In this document: positions 2,815 through 63,066 of the stretch, one piece after another | Layout of the letters: every line of letters begins with the position of its first letter | Position numbering within the stretch: the first letter of the stretch is position 1 | NCBI RefSeq assembly: GCF_004010195.1 | Contig: NC_057719.1 | Span: 21,040,979-21,104,978 of the forward strand | Source: Chiloscyllium plagiosum | Lineage: Eukaryota | Reading direction: 5' to 3' | DNA length: 64,000 nt | The notes under the pieces: model-generated | What the model was told of the DNA's origin: nothing | Seen by the model: the letters and a program-made list of their open reading frames with translations, nothing else | The model's database searches: none | Made by a program: the position numbers and the translations under genes

Positions 2815-2848
2815 TTCCTGAAGAAGGGCTTATGCCCGAAACGTCGAT
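2815..2848 (+). ncRNA. Minimal type-I hammerhead ribozyme (family A)
   Basis: CUGAAGA-A-GGGC-uuau-GCCC-GAAA-CG-UC; intact core. Confidence 0.85.
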
Positions 2849-2941
2849 TCTCCTGCACCTTGGATGCTGCCTGACCTGCTGCGCTTTTCCAGCAACACAT
2901 TTTTCAGCTCTGATCTCCAGCATCTGCAGTCCTCACTTTCT
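2818..2941 (+). mobile_element. PLE family A mini-element (pLTR 3' end with tail)
   Basis: Matches the 3' end of GIY-YIG-bearing PLE copies (5221, 52840); imperfect TSD cataattaccttcc 2805-2818 / cataattgctttcc 2942-2955. Confidence 0.85.
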
Positions 2942-3309
2942 CATAATTGCTTTCCCTTCAAAGACAAAAACCAACTGTAGCTATTTGTACTTGATAGTTT
3001 AAGCAACAGCAAGAACTCAGGACCTTTTTGGAATTGCAAAATTGTCTGGAGTAATCGAATGTAGCATTCAATGTCAAAAAACAGTCTAGATTGTTCTGTT
3101 ATGACGCATGCTTCATCGTCACAATTGGTGAACTGGGGGTGTTGTTTCTACAGCGTGAACTTTTAAAACACATGTAACGCGATTACATCACCAACACCTT
3201 AAGTGCTGTTTCTAAAGCATGATTCTTCTGTAGCACATAGTTGCACAAGAATGGAACCATCGCATTTCAGAAGAACTACCTTTATCTCACTTATTACAAA
3301 CAAACTAAT

Positions 3310-3680
3310 AGATATAAAATCAGAATTGCTGAAAAAGCTCAGCAGAACTAGCAGTATCTATGCAGAAAAATCAAAGTTAATATTTTGGTTTGAGTAACCC
3401 CCTCCTCAGAACTGATGGTAGCTAGGAAAATGTCAGTTTAAATGCAGAAGAGAGGATGGAGGGCAGGGGGTAAGGAGTAAATGATATGTGGGGAGTGAGA
3501 CCAAAGAGAGAACAGTTGGACATTCAAAGGAGTGCATAACATTCTGGCTAGCAGGTGAATAACTAACTATTCATGGGGACTTTTAGAGGGCCAACGATAG
3601 GTTGCATGTAGTAGAAAACTATGTGGTAACAAGGGCTGGTATGTGGTGGTTGGGGTAAGGACATGGGAGAGCTCAACCCC
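3310..3680 (-). mobile_element. Old PLE pLTR remnant (family E) with decayed hammerhead
   Basis: Reverse complement near 3375-3410 reads ctgaggag-ggggttac..aaccaaaa-tattaac, similar to the better-preserved copies at 35095-35127 and 63033-63065. Confidence 0.55.
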
Positions 3681-4613
3681 CATTAGTAGGAATGGAATCT
3701 TATCAGGACCAGAATGCTATAGTGTGAAATGTGGCAAAATCATATGAGAAGTCAAGCGAGGCATTCCACGTCGTTGGGCCTAAATTGTTGCATTTCCAAC
3801 AGAGTTTAAGCATCGAGATGTGATTCTCCCCGGGGAATCGTGAGATGCTGCCTAGTGGGATTATTGTTTATTAACAGTCTCAATAACATAGAATCTTGCT
3901 TCATTAATATGCATTCCACCTTATGCTGTGAGGAACTGGACATTGCCAATTACTGACATGGAAGTCAGTACCTGGCAGTATTAGCTTGCTGCGTGGTCCT
4001 CCAGACTGTTATTGTGGACACCAAGCAACAATGTCTCAAGGTTCAATTCAGGGCACCAGCTTTATATGCCACATGTCCATGGACATCGGTATCTGACAAT
4101 TGCCTTGCGGCACTTGTTCCACTTACAGAGCTCTTCTTCCTTTTAAAACTACACTTGTGGCACACCAGCAATTACCATGGATATGCTGCTGTAAGGATTC
4201 TTTGCCCGGAGGCTTGTGTGTCATAACAGGCTGCAGCTCAATGTTGCTCGCTTGCTCTCTTAGTGGACACTCACTTAGCACCTACCTCAATGGTCACAGT
4301 GTCTCTATTTTGCCTTGCCTTTCTGTGTCAGCAGTCCTCAGTGAAGGGAGCGGACAGTTGCTGTATGATACATTGCTGCGGCAGTCTCTCACCTGAACAA
4401 TGTGGCCAGCAACTGCAAACAGAATGCATGTATTGCAAGCAAACGGCCAAGGCTCAAAGTCTGGTTTTCAGTGCAATCTAAGGAGTCCAAGACTCAATGA
4501 ATCGATGGCAGTGTCTGAGGCCAGTACGTGGGCTTGGTCACGATCAGGCATCCAGTCGGGTGCTATCGACCCAGGGTCCATGGTTCTGCAGTTTGGGGAG
4601 TGGGTCATGGTCA

Positions 4614-5312
4614 GGCATTCACCTGCACCTCCACACATCATTTACTGCATCCATTTCACCCGATGTGGCCTCCTCTTCATTGGGGAGACAGGCCGCCTAC
4701 TTTCGGAACATTTCAGAAAAAACCTCTGGGACACCCGCACCAACCAACCCAACCGCCCCGTGGCTGAACACTTTAACTCCCCCTCCCACTCCACCAAGGA
4801 CATGCAGGTCCTTGGCCTCCTCCATCGCCAGACCATGGCAACACGATGCCTGGAGGAAGAGCACCTCATGTGTCTGCGTGGGTTTCCTCCGGGTGCTCCG
4901 GTTTCCTCCCACAGTCCAAAGATGTGCAGGTCAGGTGAATTGGCCATGCTAAATTGTCCGTAGTGTTAGGTAAGGGGCAAATGTAGGGGTATGGGTGGGT
5001 TGCGCTTCGGCGGGGTGGTGTGGACTTGTTGGGCCGAAGGGCCTGTTTCCACACTGTAAGTAATCTAATCTAATCTAATCTAATCTCTCCGCCCCCACCC
5101 CCTCTCTGGCCTATCACCCTCACCTTAACCTCCTTCCACCTATCGCATTCCCAATGCCCCTCCCCCAAGTCCCTCCTCCCTACCTTTTATCTTAGCCTAC
5201 TTGGCACACCCTCCGCATTCCTGAAGAAGGGCTTATGCCTGAAATGTCAATTTTCCTGTTCCTTTGATGCTGCCTGACCTGCTGCGCGTTTCCAGCAGCA
5301 CATTTTTAAGCT
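4614..5312 (+). mobile_element. PLE family A 3' fragment (GIY-YIG + pLTR), interrupted by a SINE
   Basis: IIYCIHFTRCGLLFIGETGR...VAEHFN GIY-YIG motif; pLTR with CpG-decayed hammerhead at 5221-5248. Confidence 0.85.
4869..5085 (+). mobile_element. HE1-type V-SINE, 5'-truncated
   Basis: gtctgcgtgggtttcctccgggtgctccggtttcctcccacagtccaaagatgtgc core; (taatc)n tail. Confidence 0.9.
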
Positions 5313-5632
5313 CCTTAATAACCAGTCTCGGGGTCTGGGCACTTTTTCCAGCTAGAGTGAGGCTTTAGAATTTGACAAGTGTAATGTCAAATGGACATGT
5401 TAAGTAATTGAGGAGGATATTTGGGACAATACAGCGAGAAATCTCCCTCAGCTTCATGGAGATAAATGCTTCATGAAACTCAATAAAATGGACACAACCA
5501 AATTATTATAATATTCAACCCATAACTGTTAGCCTATAGTGAAATTCTCCAATTAGTAGATTCATAGATTTCTGAACAATGATCTCTATTATGTCAATAA
5601 GAAATATCAGATTTGTAGTTGACCAAATATTT

Positions 5633-9375: not shown

Positions 9376-9409
9376 TTCCTGAAGAAGGGCCTGTGCCCGA
9401 AACGTCGAA
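9376..9409 (+). ncRNA. Minimal type-I hammerhead ribozyme (family A)
   Basis: uuc-CUGAAGA-A-GGGC-cugu-GCCC-GAAA-CG-UC-gaa; stem I uuc/gaa. Confidence 0.88.
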
Positions 9410-9503
9410 TCTCCTGTTCCCTGGATGCTGCCTGACCTGCTGTGCTGTTCCAGCAATAAAGTTTCAACTTTGATCTCCAGCATCTGCAGACCTCACTTTC
9501 TCC
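9379..9503 (+). mobile_element. PLE family A mini-element, 125 bp
   Basis: Perfect 12-bp TSD cagtattgtttc 9367-9378 / 9504-9515; insert begins at CTGAAGA. Confidence 0.92.
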
Positions 9504-9877
9504 CAGTATTGTTTCATTAATGATTGTAATTTCACCAAGTTCTTCTAGTCCTTCCACATTTTGATTTAAAGCTATTATTCCGAGTTTGTCTCCTCTATCA
9601 CAGAGACAAGAGCTTAGCTTAGTATTTGCTAATTTCTTCCATTATTTCCTTCTTATTAACCCATTATTTCCTAACTGTTAACTCTCATTTCTCACCGACT
9701 AGAGGACAAAAATTAAAATTAATTGCTGTGTAAATGCCTGTAAAAACATTTGATGTCCACTTTGACATTTTGAGTTAGCTTCCTCTCATTAATTAACTTT
9801 TTCCTCCTTGTATTTTCATAAAAACGTTTGAAGGGAATCGATTGCTGTAAATGATATTGGGGTATCCTGACAACATG

Positions 9878-10172: not shown

Positions 10173-10267
10173 ATCCTAATCAATAATAATAATCAAAGTT
10201 TGTGCGAAGATTTGTAGCTCGGGTGCTCGTTGCTGTGGTTCTGTTCGCCGAGCTGGAAGTTTTTGTT

Positions 10268-10306
10268 GCAAGCGTTTCGTCCCTGGCTAAGCGACATCAT
10301 CAGTGC
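10268..10306 (-). ncRNA. Hammerhead motif (family B), cleavage-site U mutated to C
   Basis: Reverse complement gca-CUGAUGA-U-GUC...GAC-GAAA-CG-CU-ugc. Confidence 0.7.
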
Positions 10307-10853
10307 TTGGGAGCCTCCTGCGAAGCACTTCTTTGATGTTTCCTCCGGTGTTTATAGTGGTCTGTCCCTGCCGCTTCCAGTTGTCAGTTTCACCTGTCCG
10401 CTGTAGTGGTTGGTATATTGGGTCCAGGTCGATGTGTTTGTTGATGGAGTTTGTGGATGAATGCCATGCCTCTAGGAATTCCCTGGCTGTTCTCTGTCTG
10501 GCTTGCCCTATGATAGTAGTGTTGTCCCAGTCGAATTCATGTTGTTTATCCCTGGGCACTATGGGTAATTTAGCATGACCAGCTATCCTTAGTAGCCACA
10601 CGCGCAGACAACAAGCAACATGAATTCGACTGGGACAACACTACTATCATAGGGCAAGTCAGACAGAGAACAGCCAGGGAATTCCTAGAGGCATGGCATT
10701 CATCCACAAACTCCATCAACAAACACATCGACCTGGACCCAATATACCAACCACTACAGCGGACAGCTGAAACTGACAACCGGAAGCGGCAGGGACAGAC
10801 CACTATAAACACCGGAGGAAACATCAAAGAAGCGCTTCCCAGGAGGCTTCCAA

Positions 10854-10893
10854 GCACTGATGATGTCGCCTAGCCAGGGGACGAAACGTTTGC
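10854..10893 (+). ncRNA. Minimal type-I hammerhead ribozyme (family B)
   Basis: gca-CUGAUGA-U-GUC-g-CCU-agcc-AGG-g-GAC-GAAA-CG-UU-ugc; stem I gca/ugc. Confidence 0.88.
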
Positions 10894-10943
10894 AACAAAA
10901 ACTTCCAGCTCGGCGAACAGAACCACAGCAATAATAATAATCA

Positions 10944-11063
10944 GATGATGAAGAAGCAGCGCTCTGAAAGCTAGTGCTTCCAATTAAACTTGTTGGACTA
11001 TAACCTGGTGTGGTGTGATTTTTAACTTTGTACACTCCAGCCCAACACTGGCATCTCCAAATC
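10944..11063 (+). mobile_element. PLE family C mini-fragment (decayed hammerhead to tail)
   Basis: tgatgaagaagcagcgctctgaaagctagtg..cactggcatctccaaatc, matching the pLTR at 31588-31672. Confidence 0.85.
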
Positions 11064-11692
11064 TGTGGATGTAGGTTTGCTCACTGAGCTGGAAGGTTTC
11101 TTTTCAGACATCTTGTCATCATACGATGTAACATCACCAATGAGCCTCTGGATAAAGCACTGGTGGTATGTCCCCCTTCTATTTATGCATTTAAGTTTCC
11201 TTGTGTTGGTGATGTCATTTCCTATCATGATGTCATTTTCTGTGGTGGTGTCTTTTTCTCAAGGGATAGTAAATGGGATCCAAATTAATGTGTTTGTTGA
11301 TAGAGTTCTGGTTGGAATGCCATGCTTCTAGGAATTCTTGTGCATGTCTCTGTTTGGCTTGTCCAAGGATGGATGTGTCCCAGTCAAAGTGGTGTCCTTC
11401 CTCATCTATATGTAAAGATACTAGTGAGAGTGGGTCATGTCTTTTTGTGGTTAGTTGATGTTCATGTATCCTGATGGCTAGCTTTCTGCCCGGTTTGTCC
11501 AATATAGTATTTGTTACAGTTCTTTCACGGTATTTTGTAAACGACATTAGTTTTGCTTGTTGTCTGTACAGGGTCTCTCAAGTTCATTAGCTGCTGTTTT
11601 AGTGCGATGGTGGGTTTATGGGCTATGATGATGCCAAGAGATCTGAGTAGTCTGGCAGTCATTTCCGAGTTGTCTTTGATATAGGGGAGAGT
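11064..11692 (-). mobile_element. PLE family D (Poseidon-like) 3' fragment, GIY-YIG + pLTR
   Basis: GRKLAIRIHEHQL..HFDWD..EFLEAWHS; inverted homolog of 11868-12383. Confidence 0.85.
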
Positions 11693-11867
11693 TTGGGTTT
11701 GGGTTTAGTTTGCAGCGAAATCAGCAGACAATGCTCATCGGGTACTTGTCCTTTTTGGATACACTGTATAAGTGATTTTCCTCTGCTCCTCGTAGTTCCT
11801 CTGCTGCATTGTGTGGTGGCTCATTGAAATAATATTGTAATGCAGTTTCAATTGTGCATGTTGGGAT

Positions 11868-12383
11868 GACAGCAACCAACCCCAACAAGCAGATAAAACA
11901 TGTCCAGAAACCCTAGCCACTCTCCCCTGCGTCAAGGACATCTCGGAAATGACTACTAGAGTAGTCAGACCTCTTGGCATCATGGTAGCCCAAAAACCCA
12001 CCAACACTCTAAAACAGCAGCTAAGGAACTTGAAAGACCCTATACAGACAACAAGCAGAACTAATGTAATTTACAAAATACCTTGCAAGAACTGTAACAA
12101 ACACTCCATTAGACAATCAGGCAGAAAACTAGCCACCAGGATGCATGAACATCAGCTAGCCACAAAACGACATGACCCATTCTCACGAGTATCCTTACAT
12201 ACAGATGAAGAAGGACACCAACTTGACTGGGACAACACATCCATCCTAGGACAAGCCAAACAGAGACATGCACAATAATTCCTAGAAGCATGGCATTCCA
12301 ACCAGAACTCTATCAACAAACACATTGCCACATCCCATTTACCACCCCCTGAGAAAAAGCACAGGAAATTATATCACTACAGA
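11868..12383 (+). mobile_element. PLE family D fragment, GIY-YIG
   Basis: NVIYKIPCKNCNKHSIRQSGRKLATRMHEH (degenerate GIY-YIG). Confidence 0.85.
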
Positions 12384-14243
12384 AAATAGACAATAGACAA
12401 TAGACAATAGGTGCAGGAGTAGGCCATTCTGCCCTTCGAGCCTGCACCACCATTCAATATGATCATGGCTGATCATCCTTAATCAGTATCCTGTTCCTGC
12501 CTTATCTCCATAACCCTTGATTCCACTATCCTTGAGAGCTCTATCCAACTCTTTCTTAAATGAATCCAGAGACTGGGCCTCCACTGACCTCTGGGGCACA
12601 GCATTCCACACAGCCACCACTCTCTGGGTGAAGACATTTCTCCTCATCTCTGTCCTAAATGGTCTACCTCATATTTTTAAGCTGTGTCCTCTAATTCGGC
12701 ACTCACCCTTCAGCGGAAACATGTTTCCTGCCTCCAGAGTGTCCAATCCTTTAATAATCTTATGTGTCTCAATCAGATCCCCTCTCAGTCTTCGAAACTC
12801 AAGGGTATACAAGCCCAGTCGCTCCAGTCTTTCAGCGTAAGGTAGTCCCTGCCATTCCAGGAATTGACCTCGTGAACCTACACTGCGCTCCCTCAGTAGC
12901 CAGAATGTCTTTCCTCAAATTTGGAGACCAGAACTGCACACAGTACTCCAGGTGTGGTCTCACTAGGACCCTGTACAGCTGCCGAAGAAGCTCTTTGCTT
13001 CTATACTCAATTCCTCTTGTTATGAAGGCCAGCATGCTATTAGCCTTCTTCACTATCTGATGTACCTGCATGCTTACCTTCATTGACTAGTGTACAAGAA
13101 CACCCAGATCTCTTTGTACTGCCCTTTTACCTAACTTGATTCCATTTAGGTAGTAATCTGCCTTCCTGTTCTTGCCACCAAAGTGGATAACTATACAATT
13201 ATCCACATTAAACTGTATCTGCCATGCATCTGACCACTCACCTAACCTGTCCAAGTCACCCTGTAATCTCCTAACATCCTCCTCACATTTCATCCTGCCA
13301 CCTAGCTTAGTATCATCAGCAAATTTGCTCATGTTATTACTAATACCATCTTCTATATCATTANNNNNNNNNNNNNNNNNNNNNNNNNNNNNNNNNNNNN
13401 NNNNNNNNNNNNNNNNNNNNNNNNNNNNNNNNNNNNNNNNNNNNNNNNNNNNNNNNNNNNNNNNNNNNNNNNNNNNNNNNNNNNNNNNNNNNNNNNNNNN
13501 NNNNNNNNNNNNNNNNNNNNNNNNNNNNNNNNNNNNNNNNNNNNNNNNNNNNNNNNNNNNNNNNNNNNNNNNNNNNNNNNNNNNNNNNNNNNNNNNNNNN
13601 NNNNNNNNNNNNNNNNNNNNNNNNNNNNNNNNNNNNNNNNNNNNNNNNNNNNNNNNNNNNNNNNNNNNNNNNNNNNNNNNNNNNNNNNNNNNNNNNNNNN
13701 NNNNNNNNNNNNNNNNNNNNNNNNNNNNNNNNNNNNNNNNNNNNNNNNNNNNNNNNNNNNNNNNNNNNNNNNNNNNNNNNNNNNNNNNNNNNNNNNNNNN
13801 NNNNNNNNNNNNNNNNNNNNNNNNNNNNNNNNNNNNNNNNNNNNNNNNNNNNNNNNNNNNNNNNNNNNNNNNNNNNNNNNNNNNNNNNNNNNNNNNNNNN
13901 NNNNNNNNNNNNNNNNNNNNNNNNNNNNNNNNNNNNNNNNNNNNNNNNNNNNNNNNNNNNNNNNNNNNNNNNNNNNNNNNNNNNNNNNNNNNNNNNNNNN
14001 NNNNNNNNNNNNNNNNNNNNNNNNNNNNNNNNNNNNNNNNNNNNNNNNNNNAAAGCTTTTACTATCCTCCTTTATATTTTTGGCCAGTTTACCTTCGTAC
14101 CTCATTTTTTCTCTGCGTATTTCCTTCTTAGTAATCCTCTGTTGTTCTTTAAAAGCTTCCCAGTCCTCCATTTTCCCACTCATCTTTGCTATGTTATACT
14201 TTTGCTCTTTTAACTTTATATGTTTCTTCACTTCCCTCGTCAC
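12384..14243 (-). mobile_element. Young 5'-truncated CR1 (ORF2 RT), (ctattgt)n tail; spans a gap
   Basis: FADDTKLGG, LVRPHLEYCVQFWSP; atagacaatagacaatagac tail; closely similar to 20540-22344. Confidence 0.92.
13364..14051. other. Assembly gap (others: 19460-20025, 21809-22073, 32649-32977, 48963-49212, 51862-52644)
   Basis: Runs of N, all within or between young repeats. Confidence 0.99.
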
Positions 14244-14257
14244 CACAGGAATGAAAT

Positions 14258-14348
14258 CATTTCTTATGAAGGGCTTATGCCCAAAACATTGATTCTCCTG
14301 CTCCTCGGTTGCTGCCTGACCTGCTGTGCTTTTCCAGCACCACACTCT
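14258..14348 (+). mobile_element. PLE family A pLTR fragment, decayed hammerhead, no tail
   Basis: ttatgaagggcttatgcccaaaacattgattctcctgctcctcgg. Confidence 0.75.
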
Positions 14349-27180: not shown

Positions 27181-27232
27181 GTATTATTTTGCTTTCACTC
27201 AGAGATTCTGGTCAAGAGACATTGCTGACAAA

Positions 27233-27491
27233 GTTAAAAATCACACAACACCAGGTTATAGTCCAACAGGTTTAATTGGAAGCACATTAGCTTTCAGAGC
27301 AACGCTCCTTCATCAGGTGGTATTGGAGGGCTCAATCTTAACACACAATTTATGGCAAAAATTTACAGTGTGATGTAACTGAAATTATACATTGAAAAAT
27401 TTAGCCCTCCACTACCACCTGATGAAGGAGCGTCGCTGCGAAAGCTAGTGTGCTTCCAATTAAACGTGTTGGAATATAATCTGGTGTTGTG
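27233..27491. mobile_element. PLE family C fold-back insertion with two opposed hammerheads
   Basis: Inverted arms 27241-27332 / 27403-27494; hammerheads at 27285-27319 (-) and 27416-27450 (+); possible TSD tgacaaa 27226-27232 / 27492-27498. Confidence 0.88.
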
Positions 27492-27556
27492 TGACAAAAA
27501 GTAGTTATTGAGACAATATAATCCAACACTCATGATTCTGGAATACAGAATTGATG

Positions 27557-31098: not shown

Positions 31099-31112
31099 AC
31101 CACCATTGCACT

Positions 31113-47400: not shown

Positions 47401-48614
47401 CCCATTACCTAATTTGCCAGTTCACTTCAGCTCTGTTTTCCTGGCCTCATAATTGCCCTTATCTAACATACCGGTCATGGACCTACCCCTTTCTCTCTCA
47501 AACTGAATATAAAATTCCATCCTATTATGGTTACCACTAGTGAGGACAACTTTTCGATGAGGCTATTCCTTTAACCTTGCTTGTTGCACAACACCAGGCT
47601 TGGTGTAGCCTGCTCTCTGGTCAAAACCAGAGTGTGCTGTTCTAAGAAACTATCCTGAAAACATTCTGTGAATGTCTCACCTTGGCTACCTTTGTCCATT
47701 TTTCTTTTGTCTCGAGACAGAGTAAATTTCCCCACATTGATCGCTGTGCTGTTCTGACAAACTTCCATTCTTTATTCTTCTACTCAATTCTATCCATTGG
47801 TTGCCCCTTATCTATTTTAATAGTTACACCCTCTGTTCTCCAGGACCACTGTTCATTTTCTAGGCAGGTGTATAAAACTGATAGGCAAGCTAGAGACAGG
47901 GTTCTGTGCAGCTGGTGCTGAACTACAGCTGCTTGCTTCAGGCAGCTGCAGTGTAATCACATGCACTGATTTGCACACAAAATTGGGTAGAAAACAGACT
48001 GGAAATGTTTGTGGTATTCTGAAACGTTAAAAGTGAACTAAAACACAAGCTTCCAAATTAGATCATTCTCCCAAACAAAATAAAAAGCTTAGCTGACTAC
48101 AAAATGACTGGCAGCTTTTGTTTCAGATTTGACACAGTAACGACAACTTATATACACGTCTTGTGGACTGGAGCGGTTGAACTCCAGTCACATCCATACC
48201 TCACTTTGTCCAGCTCACATAACAATGAGAAAGGAATGGCATTTTCAGTGGATAATAAATAGGTTTACTCTCATGCAACACCCATTGAGCTCAAAACTCT
48301 TCAAATTTCAGCCAGTTTGTTATCTCAGTTGAAGGACATGCAAAGTGAAACCTGAACTTACATTATATTTTCAAGAACCTATCTCTGTTAACAAACAAAA
48401 TTGCTTTGCTGGTAGCAGGGTTTTGAACTGAACATGTAAGTGGTTAGGAAAAATAAATGTGAGCAGGAAACCACTGTTACTGCGCTGTGTAAAAGTACCA
48501 AGCCAAAAACTTATTCTGGTTATGTGCAGGATTGAACATTACAAGGATGGATATTTGCAAGTCAAGACTAATGATATCACTTGATTATTTCTTTTTGCTG
48601 AGGGAATTGCTTTT

Positions 48615-49594
48615 ACAAACCCACTGACTCCCACAGCTACCTGAATTATACCTCTGCCCACCCTAACTCCTGCAAAAATGCCATCCCGCATTCCCAATTC
48701 CTCCGCCTCCACTCTATCTGCTCCCAGGAGGACCAGTTCCACCACAGAACACACCAGATGGCCTCCTTCTTTAGAGACCCGCAATTTCCCTTCCCACATG
48801 GTTAAAGATGCCCTCCAATGCATCTCGTCCACATCCCGCACCTCCGCCCTCAGACCCCACCCCTCCAACCGTAACAAGGACAGAACACCCCGGTGCTCAC
48901 CTTCCACCCTGCCAATCTTCACATAAACCAAATCATCCGCCGACATTTCCGCCACCTCCAAANNNNNNNNNNNNNNNNNNNNNNNNNNNNNNNNNNNNNN
49001 NNNNNNNNNNNNNNNNNNNNNNNNNNNNNNNNNNNNNNNNNNNNNNNNNNNNNNNNNNNNNNNNNNNNNNNNNNNNNNNNNNNNNNNNNNNNNNNNNNNN
49101 NNNNNNNNNNNNNNNNNNNNNNNNNNNNNNNNNNNNNNNNNNNNNNNNNNNNNNNNNNNNNNNNNNNNNNNNNNNNNNNNNNNNNNNNNNNNNNNNNNNN
49201 NNNNNNNNNNNNCCTTGGAACACTTCAACCCCAGGGCATCAATGTGGACTTCAACAGTTTCCTCATTTCCCCTTCCCCCACCTCACCCCAGTTCCAAACT
49301 TCCAGCTCAGCACTGTCCCCATGACTTGTCCTACCTGCCTATCTTCTTTTCTACCTATCCACTCCACCCTTCCCCCCCGCCCCATCACCTTCATCCCCCC
49401 CCCCACTCACAAATTGTACTCTATGCTACTTTCTCTCCACCCTTCAGGCTCTCTGCCTGTATTCCTGATGAAGGGCTTTTGCCCGAAACGTCGATTTTAC
49501 TGCTCCTCGGATGCTGCCTGAACTGCTGTGCTTTTCCAGCACCACTCTAATCTAGAATCTGTGTTCCAGCATCTGCAGTCATTGTGTTTTACCT
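48615..49594 (+). mobile_element. PLE family A-subfamily 5'-truncated copy with tail; spans a gap
   Basis: YKPTDSHSYL RT-thumb motif; 10-bp TSD aattgctttt 48605-48614 / 49595-49604. Confidence 0.9.
49461..49496 (+). ncRNA. Minimal type-I hammerhead ribozyme (family A)
   Basis: auuc-CUGAUGA-A-GGGC-uuuu-GCCC-GAAA-CG-UC-gauu. Confidence 0.88.
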
Positions 49595-50952
49595 AATTGC
49601 TTTTGGAGACCAGCCACTAGCTCACTAGTGAATATGAGCAATAAGGAATAATTATCATTCCATTATCAAAGGAGAGGTGGTCCATCATTCTTAATTAGCA
49701 CAGGCTTTATTTATGTCAGGGCACAAACTGAGCAAAAGAAATGCATTAACCCTTTGGTATGATTTGGATAACTTGCTCTCATTGAATACTCTAGAGTCCA
49801 GGCAGTATTTTAATTTGAATATGGTCCACTTAAACAAATAATGACTTTTACGTATTAGATTATATTTGTTCAACTGTGAAAGGTTTGAGAAACAGTGTAT
49901 GTTAATTAGGTAAAACGTGCATCTTTATTTAAACAAATTGAGCCATTCAACCTTGCTTTGTCTCAGACTATGTGGGTATTGAGTTATTGGCATAACTAAA
50001 GTTAGCCAAGAATTAAGGTAACCATTCAAGATGCAGGTACGCGTCATTTTGGATCAAGCACCATAGGAAATTCTTCCAAGACAACAGGAGAACTGAGAAT
50101 CCCAAAGAAGTCACAAACTCCAACTGCCAATCATCTGACTTCCTTCTATTGAGACACAGTAGTATAGATTTTGCAGTTAGAATAACATTAAGGTGTTAGT
50201 TGCTCACTGTTATCAGTGTACAGATCACACTCTGGCAATTGCACTTGAGTAGTTGAATGCAGAATTCAGTGCATTTTTGCCTTGTTCTTCAGTTGTTTGC
50301 CGTAATAACATCTCATTAAGACATTCAGCATAGAGCCACATAGAACTCCATGAAGTTACTGTATTTGACCAGCAGAATGCACTAGTCTGACTTTAAAAAC
50401 TTTAAACTTATCCACTCGTGTAAGTTAAATTTTAACGACATAATCAGTTTCTGCCCAACAACTACTCTGCTGTTAAAAATGACCTTTTATGCATATTATA
50501 TCTCATTCCTTCTGATTTTACGTATTGTTGGCATTCTTAACATTTTCTTTCTATATCTTACAGCATTTTCCCTCAATCATCTTTCTTTCCCTCTCTTTGT
50601 TTCATTTTCTGTAAGTGACTTGATGTCGAAAACACTGTTCTAGCTGACAATTCCCCATTCAGACTGGGTGCCTCAATAAGTATATTTCAATCTGACTATT
50701 TTAAAATATGCACAGTTACCTGCTTGCCTTGTTTAAATCCGACTCAGATCCTCTGGGGAGAATCCTGTTCCAATGTAGATTTCTAATCATTGAACATTGC
50801 AGTGGAAAGGGTCATAGTATGTTTGTGAGCAAGTGTAAGTGTCATGAATAACTGGTAGTGACTCCATTAATCACTGACTGCAAAATCCAGTAAAACGTGA
50901 ATTGAGAAATGTTCATACAATGAACAGGACTATAATATAGATCTTCTATTAG

Positions 50953-52644: not shown

Positions 52645-52968
52645 TTCTCAGTCCCAACCCTCGGACTCAGCACCGCCTTCTTGACCTGTAATCTTCTTCC
52701 CGACCTCTCCACCCCCCCCCCCTCTCCGGCCTATCACCCTCACCCTCACCTCCTTCCACCTATCGTATTCCTAGTGCCCCTCCCCCAAATCCCCTCTCCC
52801 TTACCTTTTATCTCAGTCCACCTGGCACACCAGCCTCATTCCTGAAGAAGGATTTATGCCCAAAACGTCGATTCTCCTGCTCCTCGGATGCTGCCTGGCC
52901 TGCTGTGTTTTTCCAGCATCACATTTTTCAACTCTGGTCTCCAGCATCTGCAGTCCTCACTTTCTCCT
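52645..52968 (+). mobile_element. PLE family A pLTR with tail; decayed hammerhead ~52842-52869
   Basis: Same sequence as 5086-5312 and 2818-2941. Confidence 0.88.
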
Positions 52969-55189
52969 AGTACAATACTGTGATAAACTTCAACAGTGGC
53001 CACAATCTGACGCCATTTTGAATAGTTTATGAATAGAAATGATAACAGAATTAACTGAAGAAGAGTTCTGTGCACTGAGTTTGCTCATCAATGACATCCG
53101 TACCTCTATCCCTCCATCACCGTTTTGCCACTGCCTAGCCTGGACTCACCAATGTAGGAGTCATCACTCTTTCGATGCCATCTCTTTGCCGCTAGGCCCA
53201 CCCTCTTGATGCAACTGCCAATGCTGAGTCTCATGCTGACCCAACAAACCCCTCACAACCAGGAGTCCCCAGCTCCGCTGTTGCCTCAATGACGCCAGAA
53301 GACCTGGCTTCCGGCATACCAGGCCAACACAACCACAGCCACTGCCTTGCTAATGCCAGACCTCTCCGCTCTGGGTCTACTGCAACCTGGAGTCCCTAGC
53401 TCCTCTGACAGGCCAGGCCACCTGCGCCGTCTTGCTCCGGCCACCCTCCTCCAAGATGGTGCAGTGTTGGCGTTGCCATCTCAAAACGTCCACTCCCACC
53501 TCCAACTACTGGAGAAGTGTTGCTGCCACTGCCTTTGCTGCCACCACCAGCCCCGAATGCCGGGAGGCTGCCTTGACCCAAGAATTATATCCCAAACAAC
53601 GTGATACTCCCCCAGACATAAACTCCCCGATGTTCTTGTGTATACATGAAACTGCAGCTATAAAGCAGGTCCTGATAAATCATACAGGGGGTATTGTAAG
53701 TGAGCATAAATCAGCATGGAATATTGCCTATTGGTGGACCACAAAGATTGAGAAATGGCACAAACTGGAAGATGGCTTTGCATTTTAATCTTGACTGAAA
53801 TGAAGAGACTGAAAGATCTGATCAATCCTCCCAAGAATTTGCACTTTCCTCCAAGTAATTTTCAAGCCTGACTTTAGTGTTTGAGCCTGTAGCCATTGTC
53901 AGCAAAGTCAGAAGAAAATCAAGTTTGGAAATTAACCCATAAATATTATACAATTAGAAAATACTGATGCCAATCAGAAACTAAAGAAAAGTAACCAGGC
54001 CTGAGCCACTGTGTTATGCACAGGCTTTCACCGAAAGCAACTGCTCAATAATACCACAGCACGTGCCTTAGGAGTATTTGTTGGCTCCTTCAGAAATAAT
54101 TACTGCAGTCATGCAAACTGAACGCCAAAGGGGCAGTCAGTAAATTATCTTTTTTATAAAGGTCCTCATGCAGATTTGCCTCCTCTTCTTCAAAGCTGAG
54201 ACTGCAGAAGCAGCCCTGGATTTATGGTCCACTAATTCCCAGGCAGACGGATCAATAAAGCAAGACACAAGACCAGCCTTACCTTGATAACTCTGTCGCT
54301 TCAATAAATCACAAGACGCTGCTGCAGAAAGGCTTCTGTGTCATTCATTTTTCAGCCTGCCCTCTGATATCATTAAGCACTATCCTTATGTGGCAGGTCA
54401 TTTCAGTCTAATGCAGAACTAACCGGATCTGAATTCTTTGAAGCAGCATAACAGATATGTGCAGAGGAAATTGAATTAAAATTTGCCTCCAAGAAATGTG
54501 CATAATGTAAATGTGTGCAATAATCAATCCTATGCTTAATTCTCTACGGTGCTGAGGTCCCATTGCAATATATCAATAGGTGACTTGTGGGGAGGTTATG
54601 CAATGTCAGTCCAGGCACAAAGATCAAATATCTGGATAATATCATACATATCTGAAGGAATCACTTGTTTCCACAACATGTCTCATATCCTAGGTGACTA
54701 ATGTCAAACAAGGGGAGTCATTTTAAGTTGCACTATCCTCTTTGACATTTCATAATATTTAAGGTACAATGGAACGTAGCCACAATATTCTGTCATGACT
54801 GCTGTATTGTGAAACAGAATTGTGTGGGACTAAAGCCTGACCCTTATTATGAAATATTGTAGTAACAAAGACAATAACTTTATTTTGCTATAAGACTCAT
54901 AAACTAATATCTATGGTACAGAGACTGTGGTATTAAAAGCCCATAACTACCATTAATAAGTGCCATTTTCACAGCAAACTAGAGATTTTGGCAAATAGAC
55001 TTTGAAGAAGGTTTATTTGTTATCAAATATTGCATTCATATTCAATATTTGTTCTATTCATACATACATTAAATTTCTCTGGATGCTGCCGGAAGTAATT
55101 ATTTAAAATATAGAATAAGCAATGGCCATTGGAGCATCAGAAACTCACTGATTATTCAATCAATTATATATAGGATATGAAAGACTGGA

Positions 55190-55347
55190 AGAGAAAGTGA
55201 GGTCTGCAGATGCTGGAGATCAGAGATGGAAATGTGTTGCTGGAGAAGCGCAGCAGGTCAGGCAGCATCTAGGGAACAGGAGAATCGACGTTTCGGGCAT
55301 TAGCCCTTCTTCAGGAATGAGGAAAGTTTGTCCAGCAGGCTAAGAAG
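55190..55347 (-). mobile_element. PLE family A short insertion
   Basis: 9-bp TSD aagactgga 55181-55189 / 55348-55356. Confidence 0.9.
55283..55318 (-). ncRNA. Minimal type-I hammerhead ribozyme (family A)
   Basis: Reverse complement auuc-CUGAAGA-A-GGGC-uaau-GCCC-GAAA-CG-UC-gauu. Confidence 0.88.
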
Positions 55348-56245: not shown

Positions 56246-56370
56246 GGCGAAAGTGAGTTCTGCAGATGCTGGAGATTAGAGCCAAGAGTGTGGTGCTGGA
56301 AAGACAGAGTAGGTCAGGCAGTATATAAGGAGCAGGAAAATCGGCGTTTCAGGAAGAAGACCTTCATCAG
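56246..56370 (-). mobile_element. PLE family A mini-element, 125 bp
   Basis: TSD aaaaaaacacag 56234-56245 / aaaaaaccacag 56371-56382; the insert's 5' end is CTGATGA. Confidence 0.85.
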
Positions 56371-57339
56371 AAAAAACCACAGCCATTGGAATTTGATATT
56401 CTTTGTATTTGCAACCAGAGACATTTTCTACTCATGCACGACACAATTTCCATACAATTTTAAGCAATGAGAGAGTGTGATAACCGAATGGACCTTTATT
56501 GTATTTTGGCGGGAAGATCTCAACAGCTGCCAACAGCGTCCTTTAGCATGTAGTCCTGATCTTAGATTGTTCAAATCTGCAAGACTCAATTCAGGTCAGT
56601 TCCTTACACTGAAGACCAACAGGCTTTGGGTAACCAAAGAGCATCTTTCACTGAACTGATGGTCTTCCAGACGTAGTCGATATTTGTCTGTGTGTGCATC
56701 ATTGTGGATTGCTGTGCATCATTTGTCATTAATATAATAGTCGTTGTCTGACATATTATCTTCAGTTTCTGAGTCTTCATCCTGTGGTTGATAATAGATA
56801 GTTTGGATATGTTGTCTGTTTTTTTTTCCAGGACTTGACCATTGCCCATTACAATCTTATATGCTGTGTCTGGTCACAAAATGTGGTATCTTTTTATTAA
56901 CCCAACTCAAACTCATAAACTTTGTCTTGGTTCAAGTTGGAATAACTGTATGTTCATTAAACATGCTGTTGTACCATTTTCTCTTTTCTTTTCAATAATA
57001 TGTTATACGCATAAGACCATATGATAAAGAGCAGTGGAAGGACACGTGGTTCATCAAGTCTGCTCCACTAGTCAATGCGATCATGTCTGATCCAACAATC
57101 CTCAATTCCACTTTCCCACCTTAACCCCATAACTTTTACTGATTAAAAATCTATTTCAATCTTGAATATACTCAAAGACCCAGTCTCGACAGTCTCTGTG
57201 GTGAAGGGTTCCACAGATGGTTGTACATGTGACTGTGTGGTAACAGTGAGAGGGGAGAACAGCTCAATCTGTCTCCCAATCATGACAGTTGCTGCTGAGA
57301 GTAACCCACTGTCTTGCAGAGTAGTTCATAGATTTAGCA

Positions 57340-57739: not shown

Positions 57740-57895
57740 TTCTGGATTAGTGGTGCTGGAAGAGCACAGCAGTTCAGGCAGCATCCGAGGAGCAGTAAAA
57801 TCGACGTTTCAGGCAAAAGCCCTTCATCAGGATGCTCTTGCAGCACCACTAATCCAGAATCTGGTTTCCAGCATCTGCAGTCATTGTTTTTACCT
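57740..57895. mobile_element. PLE family A fold-back mini-insertion
   Basis: ttctggattagtggtgctg is inverted to cagcaccactaatccagaa; 14-bp TSD agatgtgaaccaag 57726-57739 / agatgtggaccaag 57896-57909. Confidence 0.9.
57800..57833 (-). ncRNA. Minimal type-I hammerhead ribozyme (family A)
   Basis: Reverse complement auc-CUGAUGA-A-GGGC-uuuu-GCCU-GAAA-CG-UC-gau. Confidence 0.82.
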
Positions 57896-58390
57896 AGATG
57901 TGGACCAAGAGCAGGAAGAAGGATTTAGTTTAATTTGGCATCATGCTCAGCACAACACCATAGGCTGAAGGGCCTATTCCTGTGCTGTACTATGTTCTAT
58001 GTTCTATACGCTTCCTCAAGTATTGAGAGAGAAAAAAAACTGCATTCAATGCTCCAGGATAATCCTTACCTGCGTAATTTTCATAAACTGGGACAGAAAA
58101 TGCTGGAAATCAATAATAGAGTGGTTTTCTTGCTGGGGACAGATAAGGGATAAAGTGGATTCCACAGCCTTCAGATGTGGATTGGAGGTGACCAAAAAGG
58201 TAGCCAGATAGCGAGGTGGGTTATTTCAAAAGTCTGAAACTTCACCCTACCATTTTCTTATGTTTTATGCCCTCTACCTTTTTTCCTTCACACCCAGCAC
58301 AACACCTCCATGTGACCTCCAAGTCATTAGAAAAACTTGATGTGGTGTTTTTTTTATGAAAAGCAGTTTCACAGATACTGTTGCTACTGT

Positions 58391-58608
58391 CAAAAAGTGT
58401 GACGCTGGAAAAGCACAGCAAGTCAGGCAGTATCTGAGGAGCAGGAAAGTCGACGTTTCCAGCATAAGCTCTTAATCAGGAAGGGCTTCATTCTCAAAAC
58501 GTCAATTCTCCTGCTCCTCGGATACTACCTGACCTGCTTGCTTTTTCAAGCGCCACACTTATCAACTCTGACTCTCCAGCATTTGCAGTCCTCACTTTCC
58601 CCTAACCA
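58391..58608. mobile_element. PLE family A fold-back insertion, inversion point at the hammerhead
   Basis: Arms ~58396-58480 (-) and ~58480-58560 (+); TSD-like ttgctactgt 58381-58390 / ttgttactgt 58609-58618. Confidence 0.82.
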
Positions 58609-59400: not shown

Positions 59401-61041
59401 CTCCATGACTCCAAGAAAATCTAATACATTTGAATCATGATGCTATCATGACTGATTTGTTCTGATGAAAGGTTATGACCTGACATGTTATCATTGTTTC
59501 TCTCCAGAAGTTCTGAAATGCTAAATATTTTCAGGTTTTTTTTTGTGTTTTGATTCCATGTTTCCTGCATCTTAACTTTTTTTTAATCCCTGCACTCCAA
59601 ACCTCAGGCCAACATACCAAGTGCCTTCCCAATTGCTTGCTGTGCTTACCTGCTGAGATCTGTGTTCCTTGTTTCCAAGGAAAATCAAATTTGAAAATGC
59701 TTTTGAAGCTCACATGATCATCTTTCCACAGATAATAAGTGAATCGCAGTATTTCGGAAGTGTGACTCAGGAAATCTAACCATGAAGACTATGCTTTCCC
59801 ATATAGATCACAGAACAAATGTCAATATCCATATAATTACATTTCCAAAAATAGTTAATTTTCCTTACAGTATTGTACCATGACTAAGTGGGAGATATTT
59901 TCCACTTCAAGGAGATACTAACACCATCACATCAAGCTGTCATGTCAGTAAGCCACACAATAAGCTTAATACTTTGTTCATTTTGTTCTAGGTACATGGG
60001 TGACAATGTTGTATTTATTGACCATACCTCATTGCTATTGTGATTGCTTTTAAATTGAACAACTTGCTGAGACACTTCAGAGGACAGTATGGGTCAATCT
60101 GTAAACAGGGACAAAAGGATCAAACCATACAGTATTGGACAGCTTGTGTCAAAGGTACATTCCACTTTAAAGGATTTCTTATTAGGTTCCTGCAACAACA
60201 AACACATATACATGTCCTGACATTAGAGGAGATAAAATGAACAAATGACTATATACCGCCAGGAAATCAAGGTAATTATAGCATGTGTAATAATTGCCTG
60301 AAACATTCTAATGATTCACTTTAGAAGTCATTGATGGAATTAATGCATTTACAAAGATGTTGAAACTTAAGTCTATGTATTAGAAACATTATAGTTTAAA
60401 ACTGTGAAATATTTGGACTTAACTGGTACCTTGTAACGATCAGCCCAATGACTGGCACATGGATATTAAGCAAGAGCAATTATGGGTTTTAGATTTGGTT
60501 GGGGATATCCGATACTAAAAGGTTACGGACTTTGAATTTTTATGGATAGTTATTATAGCCATAACTTAAAGACCAACTGGAAGAATAATGTTACTTTCCA
60601 GACAAAACATCAATTACATTGGTATAGGACTCATGTCCATTGAAACCAGTTTCCCACATTCTTTGAACAGTACAACTTTCAGACAGGAAACACTGAAAAG
60701 TGTGTGGGATAATGTATTTTTATTTCTGTTCAATTAACCTCAGCCCTTCAACAAAAGAAGCTGAAAACACAGGAGTTTAAGGTTTAATGAGGGTCTTAGG
60801 GTTAATTGCCAATTACCTCTGGCACTTCACTATTGCAACAAATGAACATGATCAAGCTTTAACTATTGGTTACCATTTTCTTTTTAACGCCAGATCATGA
60901 TTATGTATAATTATTCCTTTAACTTGTACTGCAGTCTTCAGTTATGTCATGTTAACATGAGTTATAAAGTTAGTTACATTTCCTAAATTTTAGAGACTGG
61001 TGTACCTGAAATTACTTTTAGTGATGCTCTTTCAGAGAGAA

Positions 61042-61102
61042 GGGGAGAAAGTGAGGTCTGCAGACGCTGGAGATCAAAGCTGAAACTTTCAATAAAGTTT
61101 CA
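61042..61102. mobile_element. 61-bp PLE family A tail-only fold-back insertion
   Basis: 16-bp TSD gctctttcagagagaa 61026-61041 / 61103-61118; hairpin agctgaaacttt-caat-aaagtttcagct. Confidence 0.88.
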
Positions 61103-61809
61103 GCTCTTTCAGAGAGAAATTAATTGCGGGTATTGTGCCTGTAAAGAGCTTGCAGGATATCTATTTTGCCCTCCTGGCATTCACCTGCAAGAATAGCATA
61201 CAATGGACACTAGGGCATGGAATGTAGCTGCACATCAGGGCCCAACAACTTGGCTGGGAGCTCTAAGAAAGCCCACTTTCTTAGGTCAGAGACAGAGCCA
61301 CTATACTCATGTTGGGGGCGTGGGGGAGGGGGTGAGCTAGCTGTTCTCACGTTGGGCTGGGGTCATTGTGGTCAGGGCAGAGATGGAGTCACTACAAGAG
61401 GGTCAGAGTGGGGCTACTTTGGTTGTGTTAGGGATGGAGCTGATGCGTTCAAGTCAGTGGCAAAGTTGGGGGCCCTATGAGGATTTATGCTGGACCTTGT
61501 GAATCCTGCCCCTCGCTCTGATGGACACCACCAAAAAGAAATTCGAGTGGGATTTCACTCGGGCTGAGGTGATCAGGTTTACAATGGCTTGGAAGTTGTG
61601 ACAGAGTTGAGTTGCCAATTGACCCACACGTAGCCAGAGGAACAAAGTCGAAGTAAATTCACTGCAAAACACTGTCATCAGAGGATCATTCAAGGCAGAG
61701 CAAGCTGAAAAATCAAGGAATTTGGATGAACAAAAAATATAATTGTATTCAAGGAAGCACCTAAATATCTATAAAATTTCAGCTCAACTACAAATGTTTT
61801 TGGTTTTCA

Positions 61810-62062
61810 TTAGATTACTTACAGTGTGGAAACAGGCCCTTCGGCCCAACAAGTCCACACCAAGCTGCTGAATCGCAACCCACCCAGACCCATTCCCCTA
61901 ACACTATGGGCAATTTTAGCATGCCAATTCACCTAATCTGCACATTTTTGGGGGGGATTGTGGGAGGAAACTCCACACAGTCAGTCGCCTGAGGTGGGGA
62001 ATTGAACCTAGGTCTCTGGCGCTGTGAGGCAGCAGTGCTAACCACTGTGTCATCGTACCGCC
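61810..62062 (-). mobile_element. HE1-type V-SINE with internal deletions
   Basis: Reverse tRNA head gcgctgtgaggcagcagtgctaaccactgtg and gatta tail. Confidence 0.88.
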
Positions 62063-62972
62063 AACCTTTTTAGGCTTTTTAGACTTTTTAGTCTTTAATC
62101 TTTTTAGATTAGTTCTTATAGCACAAAAGGAGGTCATTCTGCCAATAGCACACCTCAAATAATTCAATGATTTGAAATTTTTAAACTGTTACAGCCAAAA
62201 TTTGTAAATTGTAAAAATCAAGGAAAACAACAATATAACTGAGGAATGCACTCGGCACAAGAGGCAACTTAAAGCATTGGCTTTAAGCTTTGCATCATTC
62301 TGACAAAATGCTGGAGGAATGCTGGTCAATCAGGCATATTTCAGCTCACAGATCTAACCATTGTGAACAGCAATTGGGAATGCCACAAGCACACTGTGGC
62401 TGCAAGCCTCAAGCTCAATCTTCTACCCAGGAGTCAACAGACATTTGCTAATTGGATCTAGATTCCACCTGTCACAGGTTCCAAACCATTGTAACCCTGA
62501 TCGCCCCAGCCCGAATGGAATCCCACTCAGTGCCACAAGTTCTTTGGTTGCCCTATGTTCAGTTTCCATCTGGACAAGTATGTTGGCATTCCTCTTGTTG
62601 TCACATACAGCAGGATGTTCTCCTTTTAAGTGTCACACTATAACCATATAGAGGAGCATGGGGAAAGAATTAAGAGGCTGTTGCAATTACAGTGTAGGCA
62701 AAATGTATGTTTATTGACATAATATTGCATCTGTAAGTATAGTTTTTAAAAGATTGTTTACAGGATGCAGGCTCTGTTGGTCCAGTATTTATTGGCCAGG
62801 GGGTAATTAAGAGTCAGTCACATTGCTGTGGGTCGGGAGTCCAAACAGGATAAGCATGGCAGATTTCCATCCCTATATGTTAACTCTGGTTCTTCTGAAT
62901 TGTTCAGAACCCTTGCTCCAGGATTTTGTGCACAGATAGATCTAACTGCTGTAAATGAAGCACTAGTGAACC

Positions 62973-63066
62973 AAAACAAAACTTGCTGGAAACATTCAGC
63001 AGGTCTGGCAGCATCTGTGGAAAGCTATCAGAGTTAACATTTCAGTTCAAGTGACCCTTCTTCAGA
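62973..63066 (-). mobile_element. Old PLE family E mini-fragment ending at the hammerhead
   Basis: Reverse complement CUGAAGA-A-GGGUC-acuu-GAACU-GAAA-UG-UU-aac. Confidence 0.65.

What the first reader, a model, noticed from the sequence alone, without database searches (positions are those of the whole stretch)
2815..63066. Dense set of minimal hammerhead ribozymes from several Penelope-like families, with covarying stems
Seen in sequence: intact cores at 2818, 9379, 49465, 55283(-) and 57800(-) (family A, stem II GGGC/GCCC or GCCU), 10857 (B, GUC.CCU/AGG.GAC) and 31588 (C, GGAGC/GCUCC). Near-intact C copies lie at 27285(-) and 27419. Decayed copies lie at 5221, 10268(-), 10945, 14263, 29470(-), 35095(-), 35612, 52842, 56345(-), 59462 and 63033(-). 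The families differ in flanking sequence yet keep CUGAnGA + one extra nucleotide + stem II + GAAA. Stem III is reduced to a palindrome, ACGU in A/B and AGCU in C. Established: PLE pLTRs carry such minimal type-I hammerheads, thought to cleave as dimers through the palindromic stem III. Inference: one motif every few kb implies a very large genome-wide ribozyme load that standard annotation would miss.
Basis: partly seen in the sequence, partly recalled or inferred. Interest (0 to 1): 0.72.

Follow-up and report, generated by a model that had tools for sequence, protein, structure and literature searches.

The report
Penelope hammerhead relics crowd shark genome
This stretch of shark DNA carries a small hammerhead-ribozyme motif about every 2.7 kb on end-pieces of Penelope-like jumping genes; the kind has been known since 2014, about 70% of the copies are broken, and the intact-looking rest are likely inert relics.

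Summary
Real, but a known kind. All 20 listed sites exist. A strict core-plus-stem scan gives 11 hits against 0.17 in shuffles. I count 23 scorable motifs in five families; 7 are intact. Families A, B, C and a missed family E lie just downstream of Penelope-like GIY-YIG endonuclease remnants whose closest relatives are shark proteins. They match the minimal hammerheads of Cervera and de la Pena 2014. Stems covary between families. Within family A the 'GCCC/GCCU' variation is CpG decay, and core plus stem II is not significantly better conserved than the tail (p=0.30). The load is very large: 91,287 contigs of one DNA run lay on one family-A copy. Nothing shows cleavage. The most useful feature: 9 of 19 copies begin 12 bases before to 5 bases inside the core and none at the predicted cut, which suggests uncut RNA templates whose 5' end lies at the ribozyme's front edge. 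The scan has reported this, including that boundary, on many other pieces of this genome and in another genome.

The parts
2815..2946 (+). Family A solo 132-bp unit; intact motif, C3 2818, predicted cut after 2845; 7-bp flanking duplication
3376..3413 (-).
4634..5313 (+). Family A 3' part: GIY-YIG endonuclease remnant 4634-4864, interrupted by another repeat 4869-5086, then 3' region with decayed motif (C3 5221)
9376..9508 (+). Family A solo unit; intact motif, C3 9379; 12-bp target-site duplication
10198..10925 (.). Family B (Poseidon-type) head-to-head pair: endonuclease C-termini meet at about 10545-10574; motif C3 10303(-) broken at U16.1, motif C3 10857(+) intact, predicted cut after 10890; 15-bp flanking duplication
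10939..11030 (+). Family C short stub with decayed motif (C3 position 10945)
11065..12392 (.).
14257..14344 (+). Family A short copy, decayed motif (C3 14263)
27228..27494 (.). Family C head-to-head pair of stubs: C3 27316(-) (G.U closing pair, first stem I pair lost) and C3 27419(+) (G.G in stem II); 7-bp flanking duplication
29198..31673 (.). Family C (Neptune-type) insertion: inverted arm 29198-29941(-), junction 29941/29952, broken ORF 29952-31093(+) with RT core, thumb, Cys linker and GIY-YIG, then 3' region with intact motif (C3 31588, predicted cut after 31616); 9-bp flanking duplication
29405..29827 (-). Family A copy (endonuclease end, 3' region, motif C3 29499 broken at 15.2) nested in the inverted arm of the C element, 10-bp target-site duplication
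35093..35128 (-). Family D motif, core present, stems decayed (C3 35125)
35609..35646 (+). Family D motif, decayed (C3 35612)
48578..49608 (+). Subfamily A': RT-thumb remnant, assembly gap, 3' region and intact motif (C3 49465, predicted cut after 49492)
52680..52969 (+). Family A long copy with full tail, decayed motif (C3 52842, G12 lost); reference for the read lay
55191..55345 (-). Family A copy, intact motif (C3 55314, predicted cut after 55287); 9-bp flanking duplication
56246..56373 (-). Family A solo unit, decayed motif (C3 56370)
57740..57896 (.). Subfamily A' palindrome: motif C3 57830(-) (core intact, G.U closing pair) joined 2 bases before its core to an inverted tail arm 57833-57896
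58393..58605 (.).
59459..59492 (+). Family D decayed motif (C3 59462)
63033..63068 (-). Family D motif, core present, stems decayed (C3 63065)

Best explanation
These are minimal type-I hammerhead motifs in the terminal repeats of at least five families of Penelope-like retrotransposons in a shark genome, scattered as short, often inverted insertions that are likely inert and decay neutrally after landing. SHOWN: motif anatomy; position downstream of GIY-YIG endonuclease remnants on the same strand for A, A', B, C and E; flanking duplications of 7-15 bp; head-to-head inversions; pairing kept between families; CpG-driven decay within family A; tens of thousands of distinct related contigs in two species; 5' ends piled at the front edge of the motif. 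INFERRED: selection for the fold acted on the active master elements of each family, where two copies could pair through the ACGU or AGCU palindrome and cut after GUC, GUU or CUA, probably only with help from the element's protein (by analogy with the Anolis element). INFERRED: reverse transcription starts about 125-130 bases downstream of the core in family A, passes through an uncut hammerhead and usually ends at its front edge, most simply because the template RNA begins there. That yields the roughly 131-bp unit which dominates the copy number.
For: Enrichment 11 vs 0.17. tblastn places endonuclease ends upstream of the motifs: C ORF ends at 31093 (motif 31588); B at 10335(-) and about 10780(+); E at 11260(-); A at 4864(+) and 29690(-). 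Closest proteins are from Chiloscyllium, Hemiscyllium and Stegostoma, 79-86% identical. Family-majority pairs: 2.1-1.1 Watson-Crick in 5 of 5 families (3 pair types), 2.2-1.2 and 2.3-1.3 in 4 of 5 (3 types each), 2.5-1.5 in 0 of 5; 10.2-11.2 in 5 of 5 (2 types); 15.2-16.2 C-G in A and B, G-C in C. In 11 A/A' copies CpG columns differ in 21 of 88 cells against 46 of 715 elsewhere (p=1.5e-6), 18 of 21 of deamination type; non-CpG core+stem II 9 of 187 against tail 35 of 484 (p=0.30). 9 of 19 copies with an in-window reference start at -12..+5 from C3, none at the cut (+28/+29). Lay on copy 52842: RNA depth 61-113 at 52713-52754 against 1568 at 52860-52880; the only 5'-side RNA loose end listed near the motif is at 52838 (134 reads); 3' loose ends at 52966-52971; 8 of 15 listed joints are strand switches with one side at 52834-52858; a 131-base head-to-tail joint 52968->52838 in 12 and 4 contigs. 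Frangieh 2024: internal RT start 111-118 nt into an ORF that starts at stem II, hammerhead mutants insert normally, cleavage needs the protein, no RNA-seq ends at the cut.
Against: No cleavage was tested. Family D has no neighbouring ORF in the window, so its PLE origin rests on motif and tail likeness. The conservation test has 11 copies and low power (4.8% vs 7.2%). One copy (58479-) shows a two-sided change in stem II. The depth step is inflated by private differences of the reference at 52772-52822, and the loose end at 52838 is one row of 18 shown out of about 1,110. One row table 5c joins the tail (52971) to 52870, exactly the base after the predicted cut, with the highest depth in that table (145.7); it may mark copies made from cut RNA, but it is ambiguous because the natural tail continues with similar letters. 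Copies were found mainly through the motif, though the profiles included 80 bases of tail. A transcription start was not observed; microhomology at an AT-rich target or an RT stop could also set the boundary.
Confidence: 0.8

Rival explanations
1. The 131-bp hammerhead-headed unit is a non-autonomous element of its own (retrozyme- or SINE-like): head-to-tail source loci are cut by dimeric hammerheads into unit-length, possibly circular RNAs that the PLE protein copies.
For: Fixed unit 52838-52968 with a direct head-to-tail joint in 12 contigs (X1) and 4 contigs (X13); short copies far outnumber long ones; clean flanking duplications. Non-LTR retrozymes derive from PLE pLTRs and were found in one chondrichthyan.
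Against: No tandem of hammerhead units in the window. The joint stands in 12 of 91,287 laid contigs. The same sequence continues without a break into the 3' region and endonuclease of long copies. The same front-edge boundary occurs in A, A' and C. Copies do not start at the cut site.
Confidence: 0.1
2. Many dispersed intact copies are working ribozymes in host transcripts, cutting pre-mRNAs through cis or trans dimers.
For: 7 of 23 copies look intact. Family A is present in RNA on both strands: 3,225 reads among 12.96 million records of X21. Two compatible intact copies lie 2.5 kb apart on the minus strand (55314, 57830).
Against: Stem I is 2-4 bp. The double-hammerhead structure is 10.8-14.0 kcal/mol above the homodimer minimum and above two free monomers in all 7 intact copies; in native context the 1.1-2.1 pair has probability below 0.09. 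Close pairs are on opposite strands. Published min-HHRs are inactive as monomers and weak as dimers; 8 of 9 Xenopus dimers did not cut. No sign of selection on single copies.
Confidence: 0.07
3. The motif is a chance or non-catalytic sequence (promoter or protein-binding hairpin) that only resembles a hammerhead.
For: Rfam has no match. Family A stem I is 2 bp followed by U.U. The motif's role in PLEs is still called unclear in print.
Against: Five families with different stems keep the same core, the extra nucleotide, U16.1, the palindrome and 2-3 covarying stem I pairs. A PLE hammerhead of this class cuts RNA and responds to C3/G8 mutation and rescue.
Confidence: 0.03

Closest known systems
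Minimal hammerheads (min-HHR) in pLTRs of metazoan Penelope-like elements (Cervera and de la Pena 2014, PMC4209133; parts 1-2 of 4 read, supplements not seen)
   Same: Type-I layout, unpaired nucleotide between 9 and 10.1, G10.1-C11.1, palindromic 15.2-16.2 with no loop 3, several consensus families per genome, mostly solo copies, opposite-strand pairs 100-700 bp apart.
   Different: Sharks are not named in the text I read. Helix I (2-4 bp) and, in family A, helix II (4 bp) are shorter than the Schistosoma motifs (4-5 and 7-8 bp). The density here implies far more copies than the roughly 4,000 (coelacanth) and 9,000 (Xenopus) reported, though descriptors differ.
Endonuclease-positive PLEs of the Neptune and Penelope/Poseidon clades (Craig et al. 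2021, PMC8557442; Arkhipova et al. 2013, PMC3846280; passages read)
   Same: RT followed by C-terminal GIY-YIG, heavy 5' truncation, adjacent inverted copy in head-to-head arrangement, flanking duplications, hammerhead in the pLTR. Family C has the CX2-5CxxC linker; B and E relatives lack it.
   Different: Here many insertions are cut down to the hammerhead plus tail. No passage I read describes 5' ends piling at the hammerhead's front edge.
Anolis Poseidon element PAc (Frangieh et al. 2024, PMC11167929; parts 1-2 of 4 read)
   Same: Hammerhead about 120 nt upstream of the internal RT start that sets the genomic 3' end; uncut RNA is the main template; no RNA-seq ends at the cut.
   Different: PAc was assayed in vitro; the shark families were not. 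Family A's tail end is 125-129 nt from C3, family C's 86 nt.
Non-LTR retrozymes (Li, Clavereau, Pollet 2026, bioRxiv 10.64898/2026.07.22.740005; parts 1-3 of 5 read, supplements not seen)
   Same: pLTR-derived, protein-free units with type-I hammerheads; present in the one chondrichthyan they sampled.
   Different: Defined by tandem units; the copies in this window are solo or inverted, not tandem.

Membership tests
PLE minimal hammerhead (Cervera 2014) | Catalytic boxes CUGANGA, GAAA and UH | tested here: met
   14 of 23 copies, in families A, B, C and D
PLE minimal hammerhead (Cervera 2014) | [quoted passage not shown] | tested here: met
   11 of 11 strict hits have exactly one, where 0-2 were allowed
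PLE minimal hammerhead (Cervera 2014) | G10.1-C11.1 closing pair | tested here: met
   G-C in 12 of 23, G.U in 8, other in 3; C11.1 is part of a CpG
PLE minimal hammerhead (Cervera 2014) | Palindromic 15.2-16.2 without loop 3 | tested here: met
   Watson-Crick in 15 of 23 (C-G in A and B, G-C in C), U.G in 6, broken in 2
PLE minimal hammerhead (Cervera 2014) | Short helix I (4-5 bp in Schistosoma, 2 bp in D. virilis) | tested here: met
   2-4 bp, covarying between families; at the short end of the published range
PLE minimal hammerhead (Cervera 2014) | Located in the pLTR of a PLE | tested here: met
   A, A', B, C and E follow PLE ORF remnants on the same strand; not shown for D
PLE minimal hammerhead (Cervera 2014) | Self-cleavage as a dimer | not testable with these tools
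   Folding model disfavours the active dimer; no end pile-up in a polyA single-cell library
Neptune clade PLE (families C, A) | CX2-5CxxC linker before a C-terminal GIY-YIG | tested here: inconclusive
   Present in family C (29413-29198 and P0006); the family-A relative P0050 shows only CxxC
Penelope/Poseidon clade PLE (families B, E) | C-terminal GIY-YIG without the Cys linker | tested here: met
   P0046-P0048 and window 11871-12326 run from thumb to endonuclease with no linker
Neptune or Poseidon clade | RT phylogeny with reference elements | not tested
Non-LTR retrozyme | Tandem of two or more units each with a complete hammerhead | tested here: not met
   None among 11 tandem-repeat rows in the window; rare 131-base head-to-tail joints elsewhere in the genome
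Non-LTR retrozyme | Circular RNA intermediates | tested here: inconclusive
   The 131-base back-joint has 0 reads in RNA run X21; a polyA library would largely miss circles
Rfam hammerhead families | Covariance-model match | tested here: not met
   8 matches at E<=10 over the window, none a ribozyme family

The most novel reading that the evidence does not exclude
In these sharks a roughly 131-bp unit that starts at the front edge of an uncut hammerhead has reached hundreds of thousands of copies, far above any min-HHR count I found in print. Its fixed 5' end marks the true start of the PLE template RNA, so the hammerhead works mainly as the 5' boundary or loading signal of the transposition RNA rather than as scissors that free it, and the unit may in part propagate on its own from rare head-to-tail sources.
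Probability: 0.25. Interest if true: 0.6.

Novelty: new member of a known kind. Interest (0 to 1): 0.27.

Why it matters
What PLE hammerheads do is still open in print, and the one reconstituted element does not need the cut to insert. A genome with several families and very many copies lets that question be read from insertion ends: where copies stop relative to the cut tells whether cut or uncut RNA is the template. The motifs also escape Rfam, and their palindromes give false microRNA-like matches. As a list of ribozymes the finding is ordinary.

Tried and rejected
No whole genome is held, so no direct genome-wide count. Metagenome scan anchored on the family A/D tail: 119 loci, none a shark PLE or hammerhead; the best profile matches cover only the anchor. 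Rfam: no ribozyme match; its best hit (mir-196, E 0.00056, below the gathering score) is the palindrome at 58415-58540. Pfam on 17 window ORF fragments gave no GIY-YIG match and only a weak RVT_1 match for one PLE fragment; PLE identity rests on homologous proteins and tblastn. No RNA holder listed for 52660-57700. Run X22 laid 0 reads, no test. X21 has no reads on the flank beyond 53069, so nothing shows this locus transcribed. No place where many RNA molecules begin or end, including the cut site; a polyA single-cell library is a weak test. The MAFFT alignment of 13 motifs put family C one column out of register, so pairs were counted by structural position instead. Lunse et al. 2017 is not held; known only through a review passage and its title. 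No tRNA or tandem array explains the motifs. Six paper searches listed no count of hammerheads in a shark genome; the library lacks most subscription papers, and the supplements of the 2014 paper and the 2026 preprint, not seen, may list chondrichthyan motifs.
Full report
Observation. A strict scan (CUGANGA, 0-2 extra bases, 4-bp stem, GAAA) gives 11 hits against a mean of 0.17 and a maximum of 2 in 60 local dinucleotide shuffles; with a 3-bp stem it gives 15 against 0.4. All 11 strict hits have one extra base and U at 16.1, which the scan did not require. Profile searches raise the list to 23 scorable motifs in 61,119 called bases, one per 2.7 kb: 11 A/A', 2 B, 4 C, 5 D and 1 E. A core-less partial copy at 58478+ and several weak D-like remnants were not scored. 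Rfam finds none of them.

Host and carrier. Window fragments have their closest protein relatives in Chiloscyllium punctatum, Hemiscyllium ocellatum and Stegostoma tigrinum at 79-86% identity, so the host is most likely a carpet shark; the species is not established. P0006 has a PLE-type RT, a Cys linker and a GIY-YIG end (motif names). tblastn with six such proteins puts each family downstream of a PLE remnant on the same strand. C follows a broken ORF at 29952-31093. A follows endonuclease ends at 4634-4864(+) and 29827-29690(-). A' follows an RT-thumb remnant at 48578-48790. B and E follow linker-less, Poseidon-type endonucleases. D has no ORF beside it. Six insertions are head-to-head inversions (B 10198-10925, E 11065-12392, C 27228-27494, C 29198-31673, A' 57740-57896, A 58393-58605). 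The flank comparison of 12 insertions gave a shared word of 7-15 bp in 9, of 6 bp in one and of 4 bp in two; those of 9-15 bp at the boundaries (9376, 55191, 29405, 29198, 10198) are convincing target-site duplications, the 6-7 bp ones less so. Inverted 5' copies and such duplications are standard PLE architecture (passages).

Covariation. Between families it is real. By family majority, pair 2.1-1.1 is Watson-Crick in 5 of 5 families with three pair types, 2.2-1.2 and 2.3-1.3 in 4 of 5 with three types each, and 2.5-1.5 in 0 of 5. Stem II pairs 10.2 to 10.4 are Watson-Crick in 5, 4 and 4 of 5 with 2, 3 and 4 types. Pair 15.2-16.2 is C-G in A and B and G-C in C. Stem I and stem III were not part of the detection pattern. 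Within family A it is not covariation. In 11 copies over 78 columns (5 columns diagnostic of A' left out), CpG columns differ in 21 of 88 cells against 46 of 715 elsewhere (p=1.5e-6), and 18 of the 21 are deamination-type. The G.U closing pair (4 of 11) and the loss of G12 (2 of 11) are the two outcomes at one CpG. Outside CpG, core plus stem II differ in 9 of 187 cells and the tail in 35 of 484 (p=0.30). This is what neutral decay after insertion gives; the test has low power, and one decayed copy has a two-sided change.

Load. Contigs of two DNA runs were laid on copy 52842 at 80% likeness: 91,287 from X1 (organism A) and 78,816 from X13 (organism B). Summed word depth is about 1e7 over the motif and tail against 5-17 in the cleanest flank bins. 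The tool states this is not a copy number, and overlapping short contigs inflate it. Together with 12 A-type copies in 61 kb it points to the order of 1e5-1e6 copies; that is my extrapolation. About 31% (X1) and 37% (X13) of laid depth lacks G12, a figure biased upward because the reference itself lacks it. The 2014 paper reported about 4,000 motifs in coelacanth and 9,000 in Xenopus. PLE expansion in whale-shark introns is in print (passages).

Activity. Nothing here shows cleavage. In the nearest-neighbour model the double-hammerhead fold lies 10.8-14.0 kcal/mol above the homodimer minimum and above two free monomers in 7 of 7 intact copies, and with the native tail the first stem I pair has probability below 0.09 in monomers (the model ignores tertiary contacts and protein). 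The close pairs are on opposite strands, so a read-through RNA would fold as a long hairpin. RNA run X21 holds 3,225 family-A reads among 12.96 million records, on both strands, with no place where many molecules begin or end; X22 laid none. In print, min-HHRs are inactive alone and weak as dimers, the Anolis one cuts only with its protein, and 1 of 9 Xenopus dimers cut.

The 5' boundary. Of 19 copies with an in-window family reference (D has none), 9 begin between 12 bases before and 5 bases after C3, one at -31, one at -86, and 8 are long; none begins at the predicted cut. The lay agrees. RNA depth rises from 61-113 upstream to 1,568 just inside the motif, and DNA depth 5- to 9-fold. The listed 5' loose end of X21 near the motif is at 52838, four bases before C3. 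Two long flanked contig pieces start at 52836. 3' ends fall at 52966-52971. Eight of 15 listed joints are strand switches with one side at 52834-52858, and a head-to-tail joint defines a 131-base unit in 12 and 4 contigs (most rows of these tables were not shown). The distance from C3 to the tail end, 125-129 bases, is close to that between the Anolis hammerhead and its internal RT start. Against this reading: private differences of the reference at 52772-52822 deepen the step, and one row joins the tail to 52870, the base after the cut; I could not resolve it.

Mechanism. Shown: carrier, anatomy, between-family covariation, decay, abundance, boundary. Inferred: the fold was selected in active masters, where it would cut as a protein-assisted dimer; most insertions come from uncut RNA, start at the internal RT site and end at the motif's front edge, most simply the RNA's own 5' end; fold-back during insertion gives the palindromes; afterwards the copies decay. 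Confidence 0.8 for the inert-relic reading; the transcription-start step alone is nearer 0.4.

Comparison and verdict. It meets every sequence-level feature of the 2014 min-HHR class that I could test, and fails the tandem criterion for retrozymes in this window. My six searches listed no count for a shark, but supplements that I did not see may hold one. I noted the boundary idea before looking up earlier findings; those show the same observation, boundary included, on many pieces of this genome (156 notes fit the words). They are unchecked notes and were not used as support. New member of a known kind; interest 0.27.

Noticed in passing
window 52956-52970: The family A tail ends in a branch-point-like word, a pyrimidine run and TAG, i.e. 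it looks like a 3' splice site at the inferred RT start; PLEs are known to keep introns.
   Followed up: no
window 2830-2850 and other family A copies: An ATG in loop II of family A opens a short frame (seen in ORF 2634-3002), as the Anolis ORF starts at stem II; subfamily A' lacks this ATG.
   Followed up: no
table 5c, 52971->52870: A tail-to-cut-site joint with depth 145.7; could be a copy of cut RNA or a misread of the natural tail.
   Followed up: partly
window 29405-29827: A family A copy is nested in the inverted arm of a family C element with a 10-bp duplication, so this A copy is younger than that C insertion.
   Followed up: yes
window 42946-44382: Long A-type PLE body (RT to endonuclease end) that stops before its pLTR, so it has no hammerhead.
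   Followed up: partly
window 109-843(-) and 18867-22344(+): CR1-like LINE pieces; the first carries a GDSL-esterase ORF1 (Pfam E 1.4e-11), the second an RT (E 1.7e-10).
   Followed up: partly
window 4869-5086, 17335-17639, 27556-27858, 55605-55865, 61797-62052 and weaker copies: A SINE-sized repeat family with at least five good copies; one interrupts the family A element at 4634-5313.
   Followed up: no
protein P0049: A Hemiscyllium protein annotated as CUE-domain protein 2 isoform ends in a Poseidon-type PLE endonuclease fragment: exonisation or a gene-model error.
   Followed up: no
window 58415-58540: The family A palindrome scores as mir-196 in Rfam below the gathering threshold; such palindromes may give false microRNA calls and double-stranded RNA.
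   Followed up: partly
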